64,000 bases of DNA from the human T2T-CHM13v2.0 reference genome, Homo sapiens (GCF_009914755.1 NC_060943.1), one strand, 5' to 3'; counted from the stretch's first letter, positions 31,201 to 37,200 are shown. Program-made: numbers and translations. Notes: generated from the sequence alone by a model not told the origin.

Positions 31201-34200
31201 TCACTTGAGGCCAAGAGTTCGAGACCAGCCTGGCCAACATGGTGAAACCCTGCGTCTACTCTTGGCACGAGAATCACTTGAACCCAGGAGATGGAGGTTG
31301 CAGTGAGCTGAGATCACAACACTGCACTCCATCCTGGGTGACAGAGCATCAAAATACTAATACTAATACTAATACTAATACTAATACTAATACTAATAAT
31401 AATATCCTTCTTACTCCCAAAACTTACCCTTCCTGGGTCTTCCCCTTCCACATTTATCTAATTAAATTAAATTAAATTAATAATTATTTTTGTTTGTTTT
31501 TTGTGTTTTTTTGTTTGTTTGTTTTTGAGACAGAGTCTCGCTCTGTTGCCCAGGCTGGAGTGCAGTGGCGCGATCTCGGCTCACTGCAAGCTCCGTCTCC
31601 CGGGTTCACACCATTCTCCTGCCTCAGCCTCCCCAGTAGCTGGGACTACATGCACCCGCCGCCACACCCGGCTAATTTTTTGTATTTTTAGTAGAGACAG
31701 GGTTTCACCGTGTTAGCCAGGATGGTCTTGATCTCCTGACCTTGTGACCCACCCACCTTGGCCTCCCAAATTGCTGGGATTATAGGCATGAGCCACCGTG
31801 CCCGGCCTATTTTATTTTATTTTGAGACAAAGTCTCTCTCTGTTGCCCAGGTGACCTTGGCTCACCGCAACCTCCGCCTCCCGGGTTCAAGTGATTCTCT
31901 TGCCTCAGCCTCCCTAGTAGCTGGGATTATAGGCGCCCGCCACCATGCCTAGCTAATTTTTTGTATTTTTAGTAGAGAAGGGGTTTCTCCATATTGCCCA
32001 GGCTGGTCTTCACCATATTGCCCTGACCTCAAGATGATCCACCTGCCTGGGCCTCCCAAACTGCTGGGATTACAAGTGTGAGCCACCATGCCTGGCTATG
32101 AGTTCTACTTCTGTTTTTTTTTTTTTTTTTTTTTTTTTTTTTTTTTTTGAGACGGAGTCTCGCTGTCGCCCAGGCTGGAGTGCAGTGGCGAGATCCCAGC
32201 TCCCTGCAACCTCTGCCTCCCGGGTTCAAGCCATTCTCCTGCCTCAGCCTCCCGAGTAGCTGGGACTACAGGCGCCCACCACCACACCAGGGTAATTTTT
32301 TGTATTTTTAGTAGAGACAGCATGTCACCATGTTGGTCAGGCTGGTCTCGAACTCCTGACCTCATGATCCACCTGCTTGGGCCTCCCAAAGTGCTGGGAT
32401 TCCAGGCGTGAGCTGCCGCACCCGGCTGAGTTTCTGCTTCTAAAGGCTGCACAGATAACAGTGTCAAGCACAGAGTCTCCACTCGAGAAATATTGGAAGA
32501 ATGAAAAACAATAAAAATGAATACACAGCACGCACTTACCTGTCAGGCCTCACATTAAATACATTTCACATTTTATCACATTTAGTCCTTCTATCTACCT
32601 ATGAAACCAGTAATAAATAGCATTCACTCCATTCAACACTTGAGGCAACTAAGAGGTCAACTAACTCCTCAAGGTTTCTCCATAACCTGGACGGCCAAGA
32701 TTCCAGGAAGGCTGGCTATTGAGTCCACAGGACTCAGTACATTGCTTCTGCTGAGTGAGGCTGACTTTACAGAAGTAGCAACTGAGGCCCCGAGAGGGGG
32801 AACGATTTTACACCGGCATGCTGCCACTATAATTAGAGGCAGGGCAAAACCAGGCTAAACAAACTACAATTCCCATGAGCCTCCGGGGGCAGGGGCCCAG
32901 CCAGGGACGCTGCAGGCTACCCTGGGGCCTGCTGGGAGATGTAGTTCTGCAGTGTCACCTGAGACTGGGCGGGCTCACTCACCGCAGGACATAGGAACGG
33001 GCAGGTGCGCTCTTGTAGATATACTGCGCCAGCCACCACTGCACCGTCATGTTCCAGTACCGCATGCCATCGCGCACCCGCACGCAGAAATCTGTGCTGT
33101 AGCAGTCGATGTTGCGGATGGTCTCATAGTCATACTCCAAGGAAGCCGCCTTCTCCGGACTGGGGGGTGGAGGATGAGGGTGGGGGACAGACATGCAGCT
33201 CAGCCAGGCCCCCTCCCGACGCCTGCTAGTGTCCCAGCCCCGGATGCTAAGGAAGGGATCCTGGCCAGGCAATGGCCCTCTGGCTGTCAGACTTGCTAGG
33301 GCAGCAAGGGAGGGTGGCCCAGAGGGTGCCTGTAGGGTAGGAAGGTGGGTGGGCTGGGTGGTACAGTTCACTGACAATGGGGTTCTTCTTCTTTTGGTAC
33401 CTAATGGGGCCCGCCACAGCCATGAAAAGCCTTGAAGGGCTATGGTTGCTAAGCTATGAGTCCTTTAGCAACCAAGCTCAGTATATTCAGAGAAGCCGCC
33501 AAGGATGGTCCCTTCTAAATTGTCGGACACTGCAGTTGCCAGGGAAGTTGTGGTTATCATCCCTAATAACAAGGTGCTTCACGGTTGCTAGGGAGATGTT
33601 CCAGGCGCCAGTGGGGTCCCCATGATCTTTGTTGCTAAGGAAAAGGCATTCCTTAGCAACAATGCCTAGGATGTTTAGAAAGGCTTTTAGGAAGGGGCTT
33701 TTTTCCTGGTCGCAGTGATTATTGGAGAAGTGTCACCTCTAGCAATACAGTGGCTCCCTCATCACTCATGTCGACAGCCCCAGCAGTGGGAAACACTGGC
33801 CCATATGAAGCCTTGGTGGCCTCTGATGACAGGAGGGGAGCCATCCTTTAGGAGTGAGGACCGAGCAGATTTAGAAAAACCTTCAATTCCTGCTTGGCTT
33901 TACTAGGGGGACATCCTCTCTCTAGCAGCTGGAGGTCAGGGCACGGTTATTAGGGCAGTGGTAACAAATTCCCGTGGGGGTGTCACTACCCCCACAACAG
34001 AATGGCAGTTTGTGACGACTAGGGGACAACCCTAGCAGGGAGTAGTAGTTCATCATTTACATCAACAGGCTGTTCCCCCAGCCGCAGTCCAAGCCCCTGG
34101 GGGAAGGCTGACTGCAGCTGTCAGGAACACAAGGGCAGTCTACTCCTGGTTGCCGGGGGTGCCATCTCCCTAGCAACACGGGGGCAATACTTCCTCAGCC

Positions 34201-37200
34201 ACAAGAGAGTCCACAGCTATGGCCGTGCGACTTGCCTAGCAATGCAGGTGCCGGGGGGTGGAGCCTCTCTGGCAACAAGGGTCAACCCATAGTTTCCAGG
34301 GGGAGGTTTGGCTTCCTTAGCAACAGTGTAACTGTAGTTGGTAGGAATGGCGTGCCCTCTGCTGGGGAACAGCACTGGTCAGGGATTGGAAATTGCTATT
34401 TCCTTGCAGAGGGCTGCTGAGGGCTGCTATGTGAGGACATCCCACGGGGTGGAGCAGTGCTAGCTCCTAGCAACAAAGGGGCAGTGCAGGGAGTGCCGTA
34501 TCTGCAGCAACAGAGCAAAACTTCTGGTAAAAAGGAGGTGAGCTACTGTTGCTAGGGATCCTGCTTCCCTAGCAAATAGTGGCGTTCTGTTGCTAGGGAA
34601 CCGTTTCCCTAGCAACAGAGGGTGACCCACCACTAGCAAAGGATGGCATCCCCAGCAAGCAGGAACAATCTGGTTCTGGGGGGTGACACTTCTGTGGCAA
34701 CAGAGGGGTGGCACAGGGTTGCTAAGTTACCACCTTTTCCTAGCGACAGGGGGCAGTTCACCACACTGCGGGGTGACAAGCGCTAGCAACAAGGGGCATC
34801 TGTCAGTACCAGGGATCTTTTCCCTACCGACAGGGGCTGGCAGGCCATGGTTGCCGAGGGGGCGACACTCTGCTCAAAAAGGTGGTGGCCCTGGCCCCTT
34901 GCTCCCCGCTCTCCTCCCGGCTAGGGGCAGAGCCAGCCCTTGGAGGTGGGGGCTGCTGGGTCTTGGGAAGCCTCCCTCGCGCCGCCTGACCTGCTGGGGG
35001 GTGGGCATTGGAGGGTGGGGCCGCCTCCGGCCCGGGCTTTGGCGGCCACGGGGTAGGCCCCAAAGCCGGCGGCAATGCAGCCGCACTCGGCGGCAATCCA
35101 GGCCACGTAGAAGCGCATGCGGAAGGCGAAGAAGACGGGGATCATGTAGAAGAGGCGGGCGGGCAGCGGGCGGGCGTAGAAGGCGTCCTCGCGCACGGCC
35201 TCCAGCGGGAAGAGGTGAGAGGAGAGCAGGAACAGCAGGCCGAAGAGCGGGGCCGGCCAGGCGCGGCGCAGCAGGGGCCGCAGGCTGGGCACTGCCCCGG
35301 GGAAGGGCTGCTCCAGCCAGTCCAGGTAGGTGCGGTAGCGGAAGAACGGGCCTGTGGGGCGGGGAGGGAGGGCCGCGGTCAGACAGGCAGGTGGGCAGAG
35401 CTCAAGTCTGCAGGAGGAGGACAGGGAGCTTGGAAGGAAGGTGGGAAGAGGGAGTGAGAGGGGCAGAGACTGGGCGCCGGGGAGACCCCAAGGGTAGGGA
35501 CTGAGACCCTGAGAGATGGGGATAAGGAACGAGAGACAGGGGGGACAAGAAACTCAGAGAGACAGAGACAGTAACAGAAAAACAGACAGAGGGGCCGGTG
35601 CGGTGGCTCACACCTGGAATCCCAGCACTTTGGGAGGCCTAGCTGGGAGGACTGCTTGAGCCCAACAGTTGGACAGCAGCCTGGGCAAAACGGCAAGACC
35701 CCATCACTACAAAAAATAAAAATCAGCCAGGTGTGGAGGGCACCTGAATTCCCAGCTACTGGGGAGGCTGAGGCGGGAGGATCGTTTGAGCCCAGGCTGC
35801 AGTGAGCAGTGACTGAGCTACTGCATTCCAGCCAGGGAGGGAGGGAGGGAGGGAGGGAAGGAGTGAAGAAGGGAAGAAAGAAGGGAGGGAAGGAGGGAAG
35901 GAAGGAGGGAGGGAAGGAGGGAAGGAAGAAGGGAGGGAAGGAGGGAAGGAAGGAGGGAGGGAGGGAAGGAGGGAAGGAAGGAGGGAGGGAAGGAGGGAAG
36001 GAAGGAGGGAGGGAGGGAAGGAGGGAAGGAAGGAGGGAGGGAAGGAGGGAAGGAAGAAGGGAGGGAAGGAGGGAAGGAAGGAGGGAGGGAGGGAAGGAGG
36101 GAAGGAAGGAGGGAGGGAGGGAAGGAGGGAAGGAAGGAGGGAGGGAGGGAGGGAAGGAGGGAAGGAAGGAGGGAGGGAAGGAGGGAAGGAAGGAGGGAGG
36201 GAAGGAAGGAGGGAGGGAAGGAGGGAAGGAAGGAGGGAGGGAAGGAAGGAGGGAAGGAAGGAGGGAAGGAAGGAGGGAGGGAAGGAAGGAGGGAGGGAAG
36301 GAAGGAGGGAGGGAGGGAGGGAAGGAGGGAAGGAAGGAGGGAGGGAAGGAGGGAAGGAAGGAGGGAGGGAAGGAAGGAGGGAGGGAAGGAGGGAAGGAAG
36401 GAGGGAGGGAAGGAAGGAGGGAAGGAAGGAAGAAGGGAAAAGGGAAGGACGGAGGGAAGGAGGAAGGAAAGAAACTAGGAGATAGCTGTGGCACTTTAGC
36501 TACAATATGATGGTGGTCTGGCCTAGGGAGGAAGCAGTGTGATTCACAGAAGGGACCGGGGTTAAAATTTTTATATGTTCACAAAGGCCGTATGTTTAGG
36601 TCAATGTAGCATGGGAAGATAAAAGGAAAAAAAAAACAAATTAAAATAAATAAATAAGACCACATGTTGTATGATTCCATTTGTAAGCGCAATGTCCAGA
36701 ACAGGCAAATCTTTACAGATAGAAAGTCAATTACTGGTTACCAGGGATGGATGGAGGTTTGTGGGATGATGGACATGGGGTTTCTTTGCAGGGTATGAAA
36801 CTGTTCTGAATATAACTACACAATGGTCATGTCTGCACAACTCGGTGAATATACTAAAAATCAGGGAGTTGTATGTTTTGTGTTTTTTTTTTTTTCCAGG
36901 AAATTAAAGAAGCCAAGAGTTGTATGTTTTAAGTGGATGAGTATGTGAATTAGAGTTCCCTAAAGCTGTTATTGGAAAAAAAACCTTTGATGAGGTAAAC
37001 ATTAATGAAAAATATTTTCTTTTTAAAATTTCACATATATATACACATACACACATACATATATATACACACATGCACACACACATACATATGTATTTTT
37101 TGAGATGGAGTCTTGCTCTGTTGCCCAGGATGGAGTGCAGTGGTGTGATCTTGGCTCACTGCAAACTCCGTCTCGTGGGTTCAAGCGATTCTCCAGTTTC

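What the first reader, a model, noticed from the sequence alone, without database searches (positions are those of the whole stretch)
33443..34866. Array of palindromic double-X-box (RFX) cassettes in MBOAT7 intron 6
Seen: the 7-mer GTTGCTA/TAGCAAC occurs at 33445, 33466, 33584, 33631, 33654, 34171, 34318, 34468, 34548, 34589, 34610, 34718 and 34784. That is 13 in ~1.4 kb against ~0.2 expected at uniform base composition. GTTGCC/GGCAAC variants are at 33535, 34149, 34271, 34696, 34850, with TAGCAAT/TAGCAAA/TAGCGAC variants as well. Six convergent pairs span an almost constant 28-30 bp (33445-33472, 33631-33660, 34149-34177, 34548-34576, 34589-34616, 34718-34747), i.e. a unit like GTTGCTAGGGAA-N4-6-TTCCCTAGCAAC, and the stretch is Alu-free. 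Known: CCTAGCAAC is the RFX winged-helix half-site and GTTNCCNNRGYAAC is the X-box. Inference: a high-avidity RFX enhancer/silencer or cryptic promoter built from a fixed-geometry unit. It lies ~6 kb from the rs641738 liver-disease signal, in a gene whose loss causes neurodevelopmental disease.
Basis: partly seen in the sequence, partly recalled or inferred. Interest (0 to 1): 0.85.

Follow-up and report, generated by a model that had tools for sequence, protein, structure and literature searches.

The report
Decayed palindromic repeat full of RFX sites
Intron 6 of MBOAT7 is largely made of an old, worn-down tandem repeat whose roughly 42-base palindromic unit carries RFX-type binding motifs on both arms, giving a dense motif cluster that may be a regulatory element but has not been shown to bind RFX or do anything.

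Summary
GTTGCTA/TAGCAAC occurs 13 times in 33443-34866, at exactly the stated positions. First-order Markov simulation of the region gives a mean of 0.21, and 0 of 5000 runs reach 13.

The "fixed 28-30 bp geometry" is inherited, not convergent. The intron holds about 16 recognisable copies of a ~42-bp imperfectly palindromic unit, with 10 tiling 34440-34887 head to tail. Units are ~56% alike, too decayed for TRF.

The block has no relatives elsewhere in T2T-CHM13 and is not masked as a repeat.

The arm 12-mer GTTGCTAGGGAA also lies in a DYX1C1 promoter probe that shifted RFX1 and RFX2 in EMSA (PMC5024701). It fits the RFX motif GTTGCYAKGGAR derived from human airway FOXJ1 ChIP-seq peaks, a study that lists MBOAT7 as a bound gene (PMC13720309). 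No canonical two-half X-box is present.

Arms are better kept than spacers. RefSeq hESC enhancer tiles cover the 3' half.

RFX occupancy, cross-species conservation and any regulatory effect could not be tested. Verdict: a genuine, genome-unique, repeat-born cluster of RFX-type sites; function plausible but unproven.

The parts
33160..34990 (-). MBOAT7 intron 6 (between exon 6, 34991-35351, and exon 7, ending at 33159), the container of the array
   Evidence: RefSeq transcripts listed (NM_024298.5)
33443..34887 (.). Decayed array of ~42-bp imperfectly palindromic units carrying RFX-type arms. It holds 13 exact and 13 one-mismatch TAGCAAC cores, and about 16 unit places at E<=1 with the unit HMM.
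   Evidence: After one iteration, 20 hits at E<=1 lie inside the intron and 1 outside in 62 kb; palindromic units hit on both strands, and 14 of the places were used to build the model.
34440..34887 (+). Best-preserved part: 10 units tiling head to tail (one 18-bp gap), with a ~84-bp double-unit signal
   Evidence: (lags 40, 83-85, 129-131 and 174-179 enriched)
34586..34619 (.). Perfect palindrome: 15-nt arms with a 4-nt centre. It contains the 28-bp cassette 34589-34616.
   Evidence: (I16). The cassette is the only place in the genome at 0-2 mismatches.
33629..33662 (.). Perfect palindrome: 14-nt arms with a 6-nt centre. It contains the 30-bp cassette 33631-33660. Both arms carry A where the 34589 cassette carries G.
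   Evidence: (I21)
33445..33472 (.). 28-bp convergent cassette with arms matching over 10 nt. It lies ~188 bp from the 33631 cassette, as part of a longer-period duplication.
   Evidence: 100 invariant of 211 alignment columns; D14
34149..34177 (.). 29-bp cassette; the left arm is the GTTGCC variant
   Evidence: unit hit 34148-34183, E 1.8e-6; this unit was in the model
34548..34576 (.). 29-bp cassette; the right arm is the TAGCAAA variant. It neighbours the perfect one at a 41-bp spacing.
34718..34747 (.). 30-bp cassette; the right arm is the TAGCGAC (CpG) variant
34184..35215 (.). Two RefSeq functional-element tiles over the 3' half of the array: 'H3K4me1 hESC enhancer' (34184-34699) and 'H3K27ac-H3K4me1 hESC enhancer' (34700-35215). 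A third tile follows at 35216-35730.
   Evidence: annotation only; such tiles cover 13.2% of the window

Best explanation
Shown: most of MBOAT7 intron 6 is an old, locally born tandem array. A ~42-bp unit, itself an imperfect palindrome, was amplified in place, partly as ~84-bp doublets and, at the other end, within a ~188-bp period. It has since decayed to about 56% identity between units. Each arm of the unit is an RFX-type site, with a strong half of the GTTGC/GCAAC type followed by TAGGGAA, so the amplification produced a genome-unique cluster of about 26 such cores in 1.4 kb. Inferred: in cells that express RFX factors the array is occupied at many sites at once. Candidates are RFX1-3 dimers, or the single-half-site binders RFX5 and RFX7. 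On this reading the array works as an intronic RFX-dependent regulatory element, more likely an enhancer-type platform than a promoter, for MBOAT7 or a neighbouring gene. The better survival of arms than of spacers hints that the sites are under some constraint.
For: Structure. The unit HMM finds units only in this intron: at E<=0.01, 10 hits inside and 0 outside. Enriched lags are multiples of about 42. The 10 tiling units are shown. TRF is blank, as expected below about 70% identity. Uniqueness. BLAST of 1501 bp against the whole genome returns only itself. The cassette patterns are found only here, or here plus one isolated site. The block is not masked. RFX identity. The flanks of the 13 exact cores share TTCCY upstream and A..G downstream, which were not selected for. 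The 12-mer GTTGCTAGGGAA also lies in the DYX1C1 probe that was supershifted by anti-RFX1 and anti-RFX2 (PMC5024701 passages). There are 5 exact matches in the window to the in-vivo-derived GTTGCYAKGGAR, all in this intron; at one mismatch or fewer, 11 of 14 are here against 3.6 expected. MBOAT7 is one of 683 genes with a FOXJ1 ChIP-seq peak, and 71% of those peaks carry the RFX motif (PMC13720309 passages). No RFX-motif match at one mismatch or fewer lies at the MBOAT7/TSEN34 promoter. Constraint. The majority fraction is 0.71 (left arm) and 0.79 (right arm) against 0.58 for the spacer in the 10 tiling units, Mann-Whitney p=0.002. Six of 20 arms in that stretch keep the exact 7-mer; my arithmetic gives about 0.4 expected at the spacer's rate. 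Chromatin. hESC enhancer tiles cover 34184-35730.
Against: I could see no RFX ChIP, accessibility or reporter data for this DNA. The position of the FOXJ1 peak assigned to MBOAT7 is in a closed supplement, and that paper says peaks favour promoters. No canonical two-half X-box is present (0 in the window). The intron has no FOX motif. CCAAT/ATTGG occurs only twice (33721, 34385), and I judged by eye that neither is spaced from an X-box as in an X-Y module. So the usual RFX partner modules are absent. CpG observed/expected is 0.26, which I recall as typical of methylated bulk DNA, so there is no sign of germline hypomethylation. The arm-versus-spacer contrast is partly an alignment artefact, because aligners anchor on the best columns and spacers carry indels. 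Enhancer tiles miss the 5' half of the array (33443-34183) and are common in this gene-dense window. Conservation in other mammals could not be tested with the tools at hand.
Confidence: 0.5

Rival explanations
1. Neutral relic. A minisatellite whose unit happened to resemble an X-box expanded and is now decaying. RFX may or may not bind opportunistically, but the array has no selected function and no effect on nearby genes.
For: The unit structure and ~56% identity show a long decay. Fixed spacing is explained by descent alone. CpG observed/expected of 0.26 looks like ordinary methylated DNA. No partner motifs are present. No paper in four searches links RFX binding to this intron. The arm-over-spacer contrast could come from alignment anchoring and indel-prone G-runs (caveat).
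Against: Thirteen intact 7-mers and two perfect 34-bp palindromes are more than spacer-like decay would leave. hESC enhancer tiles overlap the array. MBOAT7 is listed as FOXJ1-bound in a data set where 71% of peaks carry this motif.
Confidence: 0.33
2. RNA-level element. In the MBOAT7 pre-mRNA (minus strand) the palindromes form hairpins, or the repeated UAGGG[AU] words recruit hnRNP A1-type proteins (motif recalled). Either could influence removal of intron 6 or use of the alternative terminal exon 32478-33159.
For: The two perfect palindromes fold as stable hairpins (-52.6 kcal/mol with z -5.8, and -33.3 kcal/mol with z -2.7). UAGGG[AU] occurs 6 times on the pre-mRNA strand in 1.4 kb, against 0.74 per kb for both strands together elsewhere.
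Against: Folding follows trivially from a DNA palindrome. Among 90 facing positions of the six cassettes, the non-Watson-Crick ones that would allow G:U split 4 (plus strand) to 3 (minus strand), so there is no bias to the transcribed strand. Nothing in Rfam approaches threshold (best E 0.25, far below gathering score). The UAGGG words are part of the arm motif, so their enrichment is not independent.
Confidence: 0.08
3. Remnant of a dispersed mobile element (for example a palindromic MITE-like DNA transposon or an LTR with X-box motifs) that is too old to be masked.
For: The units are palindromic. The genome does hold a dispersed family with paired X-box-like sites.
Against: BLAST of the block finds only itself. 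The cassette has no relatives at 3 mismatches or fewer beyond chance level (1 other place; the control pattern also gives 2). The dispersed family has a different core (CCATGGCAAC) and direct rather than inverted sites. No masking of 100 bp or more is recorded. The head-to-tail periodicity is that of a tandem array.
Confidence: 0.03
4. The repeated word is read by another protein, such as a KRAB zinc finger, a MYB-type factor on CAACAG, or CTCF on the G-rich tail, and RFX is not the relevant reader.
For: The conserved part of the unit extends beyond the X-box into ACA..GGGG. One CTCF-like 15-mer lies at 34351-34365.
Against: CTCF-like matches are not enriched (22 in the window against 19.4 expected; only 1 in the intron, and none in the units). 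The best-kept columns are exactly the RFX core. The arm 12-mer also lies in a probe that RFX1 and RFX2 shift.
Confidence: 0.06

Closest known systems
Promoter X-box of ciliary RFX target genes (example: DYX1C1/DNAAF4 X-box; PMC5024701, passages read)
   Same: The 12-mer GTTGCTAGGGAA of the array arms also lies in the DYX1C1 EMSA probe that RFX1 and RFX2 supershift. It has the same 'strong half plus weak half' build.
   Different: The promoter X-box is a single, promoter-proximal site reported as conserved across vertebrates. Here about 26 cores lie in an intron, arranged as inverted pairs 28-30 bp across. Neither binding nor conservation has been tested.
Homotypic clusters of transcription-factor sites and tandem-repeat-derived enhancers (for example the tandem-repeat enhancer repressed by MORC3, PMC13373173, search listing only; multiple X-box genes in C. 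elegans, PMC3245922, abstract read)
   Same: Many copies of one factor's site, created by local amplification of a short unit. The C. elegans work shows that two X-boxes in one gene can act non-additively, one driving and one repressing expression.
   Different: I know of no described RFX example built from a palindromic unit or with this many sites, and four literature searches found none. The array is strongly decayed rather than a young VNTR.
MHC class II-type S-X-Y module bound by RFX5/RFXAP/RFXANK with NF-Y (X-box sequence recalled; single half-site preference of RFX5 and RFX7 and the NF-Y partnership from PMC8287911, passages read)
   Same: Single strong half-site of the CCTAGCAAC type, as RFX5 and RFX7 prefer.
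   Different: There is no CCAAT/Y box at module spacing (only 2 CCAAT/ATTGG in the intron; spacing judged by eye), no X2-like element was seen by eye, and the array is not at a promoter. An X-plus-CCAAT arrangement does occur elsewhere in the window, at 14109-14200 upstream of LENG1.
Degenerate minisatellite
   Same: Head-to-tail ~42-bp units, a higher-order ~84-bp signal, confined to one locus.
   Different: Too diverged for TRF. The unit is an inverted repeat. Copy-number polymorphism is unknown.

Membership tests
RFX binding site (X-box) | Strong half-site RGYAAC / GTTRCY (consensus recalled) | tested here: met
   21 half-sites in 1,424 bp (14.7 per kb) against 82 in the remaining 62.6 kb (1.3 per kb). 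The top 1,424-bp window of the whole 64 kb starts at 33427; the median window holds 2.
RFX binding site (X-box) | Canonical inverted repeat of two half-sites, GTNRCC-N0-3-RGYAAC (consensus recalled; 'inverted repeat element' from PMC7498320 passage) | tested here: not met
   0 matches in the whole window, including the array. The second half is weak (TTCC-type), as in the DYX1C1 site.
RFX binding site (X-box) | Sequence shown to bind RFX proteins in vitro | tested here: inconclusive
   The arm 12-mer is shared with the DYX1C1 probe bound by RFX1 and RFX2 (PMC5024701 passages), and it fits GTTGCYAKGGAR from ChIP-seq peaks (5 exact matches, all in the intron). The array DNA itself has not been assayed.
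RFX binding site (X-box) | Occupancy in cells (ChIP) and dependence of a gene on the site | not testable with these tools
   No ChIP or ATAC tracks are available. MBOAT7 is named a FOXJ1 ChIP-seq target, but the peak coordinates are in closed supplements.
RFX binding site (X-box) | Evolutionary conservation of the site | not testable with these tools
   No other vertebrate genome is reachable. Only a within-array proxy is available: arms 0.71-0.79 against spacer 0.58.
Tandem repeat / minisatellite | Head-to-tail copies of a 10-100 bp unit at one locus | tested here: met
   10 tiling units in 34440-34887. The unit HMM is specific to the intron. Lags of 40, 83-85, 129-131 and 174-179 are enriched.
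Tandem repeat / minisatellite | Detectable by Tandem Repeats Finder | tested here: not met
   Only two small 10-bp arrays were reported at minimum score 30. Units are ~56% alike, below TRF's reach.
Tandem repeat / minisatellite | Copy-number variation between individuals (VNTR) | not testable with these tools
   Only one haplotype (T2T-CHM13) is available.
Interspersed repeat / transposon | Related copies dispersed in the genome, or masking by a repeat library | tested here: not met
   Self-hit only. Cassette patterns are unique or at chance level. No masked stretch of 100 bp or more lies in 32424-35550. Dfam itself was not searchable.
MHC-II-type S-X-Y enhanceosome module | X box with X2 and a CCAAT Y box at fixed spacing | tested here: not met
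   Only two CCAAT/ATTGG in the intron (33721, 34385). Neither is at module distance from an X-box in the right orientation (spacing judged by eye).
Structured RNA family | Match to an Rfam model, or strand-specific pairing | tested here: not met
   Best Rfam E-values are 0.25 and 0.59, far below gathering scores. G:U-compatible mismatches split 4 to 3 between strands.

The most novel reading that the evidence does not exclude
The array is a selection-maintained, one-of-a-kind RFX docking platform. Its palindromic 28-30 bp cassette places two strong half-sites about 23-25 bp apart, so that dimeric RFX factors bridge the two arms or two dimers stack. The roughly 16 units together hold a high local concentration of RFX and its partners such as FOXJ1. 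This would set the expression of MBOAT7 and its neighbours. Sequence or copy-number variation in the array would then contribute to the liver-disease expression signal at this locus. The symmetric A/A versus G/G difference between the two perfect palindromes would reflect upkeep of the two-fold symmetry.
Probability: 0.12. Interest if true: 0.75.

Novelty: new member of a known kind. Interest (0 to 1): 0.42.

Why it matters
MBOAT7 expression level is the presumed effector of a replicated liver-disease association, and loss of the gene causes a neurodevelopmental disorder (both statements recalled, not checked here). The regulatory DNA behind that expression signal is not settled. A genome-unique block with about 26 RFX-type cores inside the gene is a concrete candidate that a few public-track overlays and one deletion experiment could test. 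It would also be a clear example of a transcription-factor platform created by amplifying a palindromic unit. If RFX does not occupy it, it is simply an unusual fossil minisatellite.

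Tried and rejected
Tandem Repeats Finder at minimum score 30 gave only two 10-bp micro-arrays, so I defined the unit by hand and confirmed it with nhmmer.

Rfam in E-value mode gave only two sub-threshold lncRNA-fragment matches.

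RNA folds of the palindromes are uninformative, because any DNA palindrome folds. The strand-asymmetry count showed no bias.

Dispersed-repeat origin is rejected.

CTCF-like reading of the G-rich tail is rejected: 22 matches against 19.4 expected in the window, 1 in the intron and none in units.

FOX and NF-Y partner motifs are absent or nearly so.

Mechanical ORFs: 12 of 60 aa or more overlap the intron, and those wholly inside the array are 62-84 aa. I did not pursue them.

Genome-wide 'double X-box' class is rejected. Exact convergent 7-mer pairs with an 8-22 bp gap number 106 genome-wide, below my uniform-composition arithmetic of about 170. The listing was cut before chr19, so I did not see the local ones listed. 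By the coordinates, three of these pairs are in this intron. The listed ones elsewhere look unrelated and AT-rich.

Literature. Six searches found no paper describing RFX binding, an X-box cluster or a repeat in this intron. MBOAT7-plus-RFX co-mentions were coincidental in PMC12270618 (RFXANK by MAGMA), PMC11385423 (rat Rfx5 gene list), PMC8947470 (GO list) and PMC8123173 (RFX8 in a table). For all four I read passages only.

Supplementary tables S3 and S4 of PMC13720309 are closed and probably hold the coordinates of the FOXJ1 peak assigned to MBOAT7, which would bear directly on the main inference.

Full report
**Observation**

The region was read directly.

The window-wide count already exceeds all 100 dinucleotide-preserving shuffles (mean 5.67, maximum 12). 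A first-order Markov simulation of the 1,424-bp region gives a mean of 0.21 and a maximum of 4, with 0 of 5000 runs reaching 13.

GTTGCTA is the commonest 7-mer of the region. Allowing one mismatch, 28 cores lie in 33100-35100: 13 exact and 15 one-off, two of the latter before 33443. The variant sites and the six convergent pairs of 28-30 bp are as described.

**What the repeated word is**

Aligning the 13 exact cores shows shared sequence that was not selected for. Upstream of the core there is TT, then CC, then C or T. Downstream there is A in 9 of 13 sites, and G at +10 in 10 of 13. Further flanks carry little information. The repeated word is therefore about 13-17 bp long and of the CCYTAGCAACA type.

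- From memory, this is the RFX half-site (X-box) motif.
- From papers: RFX proteins recognise an inverted-repeat X-box and form homo- and heterodimers (PMC7498320, passages).
- The 12-mer GTTGCTAGGGAA of the best arms also lies in the DYX1C1 promoter probe that formed complexes supershifted by anti-RFX1 and anti-RFX2 antibodies (PMC5024701, passages).
- The 12-mer also fits the de novo RFX motif GTTGCYAKGGAR found in 71% of 785 FOXJ1 ChIP-seq peaks in human airway cells (PMC13720309, passages).

In the window that motif has 5 exact matches, all in this intron. With one mismatch or fewer there are 14 matches, 11 of them in the intron, against 3.6 expected.

Against a simple X-box reading, the recalled canonical two-half consensus has 0 matches anywhere in the window. 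The sites have one strong half and one weak half, like the DYX1C1 site. RGYAAC half-sites run at 14.7 per kb in the array and 1.3 per kb elsewhere.

**What the block is**

The constant cassette width is inherited. By eye, 34585-34885 splits into seven ~42-43-bp units. A profile built from them finds further units at 34148, 33624 (minus strand), 34249 and other places, and every hit with E below 1.3 in the 64-kb window lies within 33576-34887.

After one iteration the counts are as follows. Fourteen of the places were in the model and match by construction, and palindromic units hit on both strands. About 16 distinct places remain, two of them new.

| E-value cut-off | Hits inside the intron | Hits outside |
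|---|---|---|
| 0.01 | 10 | 0 |
| 1 | 20 | 1 |
| 10 | 23 | 8 |

Other structural findings:

- Ten units tile 34440-34887 head to tail.
- Short-word autocorrelation peaks at lags 40, 83-85, 129-131 and 174-179.
- Direct-repeat families show spacings of 40, 85 and 130.
- The two cassettes at 33445 and 33631 belong to a longer ~188-bp duplication (D14, 100 invariant of 211 columns).
- Units are on average 56% identical, range 31-75%. This explains why TRF reports nothing and indicates an old array.

Each unit is an imperfect palindrome. Two are perfect: 33629-33662 and 34586-34619 (I21 and I16).

**Uniqueness**

- BLAST of 1,501 bp against the whole T2T genome returns only the locus itself.
- The relaxed cassette pattern occurs only at the two perfect palindromes here.
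- A pattern built from the ChIP-derived motif with a 4-16 bp centre occurs at this locus and at one isolated site in an MSI2 intron, which has no array around it.
- The 28-bp cassette with up to three mismatches has one other place, no more than the control pattern.
- Exact convergent 7-mer pairs number 106 genome-wide. Three of them are in this intron by the coordinates; the listing was truncated before chr19.
- No masked repeat of 100 bp or more lies between 32423 and 35551.

The block is therefore neither a dispersed repeat nor a member of a genome-wide 'double X-box' class.

**Hints of function**

- In the 10 tiling units, the arm columns keep the majority base more often (0.71 left, 0.79 right) than the spacer columns (0.58), Mann-Whitney p=0.002. 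Six of the 20 arms there retain the exact 7-mer, where spacer-like decay would leave about 0.4 (my arithmetic). Alignment anchoring and indel-prone spacers inflate this contrast.
- The two perfect palindromes differ from each other symmetrically, A on both arms against G on both arms. That is a single two-sided change and is suggestive only.
- RefSeq functional elements place three hESC enhancer tiles over 34184-35730, covering the 3' half of the array. Such tiles cover 13% of the window.
- MBOAT7 is named a direct FOXJ1 target in airway cells. No motif match at one mismatch or fewer lies at the MBOAT7/TSEN34 promoter, which makes the intron the obvious motif-bearing candidate. However, the peak coordinates are in closed supplements, and that paper reports a promoter preference.

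**Points against function**

- CpG observed/expected is 0.26.
- There are no FOX motifs and only two CCAAT words.
- No CTCF-like enrichment is present.
- There is no Rfam match.
- There is no strand bias in wobble-compatible mismatches, which argues against selected RNA hairpins, although the hairpins fold well.
- UAGGG[AU] words are enriched on the pre-mRNA strand, but they are part of the arm motif.

**Conclusion**

- Shown: a genuine, locus-unique, decayed palindromic minisatellite that fills most of MBOAT7 intron 6 and carries about 26 RFX-type cores.
- Inferred: multi-site RFX occupancy, and an enhancer-type role.
- Not testable here: occupancy, conservation, polymorphism and effect on expression.

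It is best filed as a new member of a known kind, a homotypic factor-site cluster born from a tandem repeat. No paper describing it turned up in six searches.

Noticed in passing
genome-wide (listing; many chromosomes): Direct pairs of X-box-like 10-mers 15-45 bp apart (122 matches) are dominated by one dispersed repeat family carrying two CCATGGCAAC sites about 32 bp apart. I could not name the family here. Its core and orientation differ from the MBOAT7 unit.
   Followed up: no
L005 1001-1025 (T2T chr17:58233941-58233965, MSI2 intron): The only other place in the genome matching the palindromic double-X-box pattern. It is an isolated 25-bp palindrome with no further cores in the surrounding 2 kb.
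   Followed up: partly
window 14109-14200: An X-box-like 12-mer at 14161-14172 (minus strand, one mismatch to the ChIP-derived RFX motif) is flanked by ATTGG (14109) and CCAAT (14196), about 175 bp upstream of the LENG1 start. This resembles the RFX plus NF-Y promoter arrangement described for RFX5/RFX7 targets.
   Followed up: partly
window 34351-34365 (minus strand): A single CTCF-like 15-mer (one mismatch to a recalled consensus) sits in the gap of the unit array, inside a 21-nt inverted repeat (34354-34374 / 34394-34414).
   Followed up: no
window 34405-34428: A small 10-bp tandem repeat, 2.4 copies, inside the array gap (TRF).
   Followed up: no
window 45586-45787, 55066-55559, 62340-62523, 62909-63169: RefSeq lists silencer fragments in TSEN34 and around RPS9, including one region targeted for CRISPR deletion. 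They are unrelated to the array.
   Followed up: no
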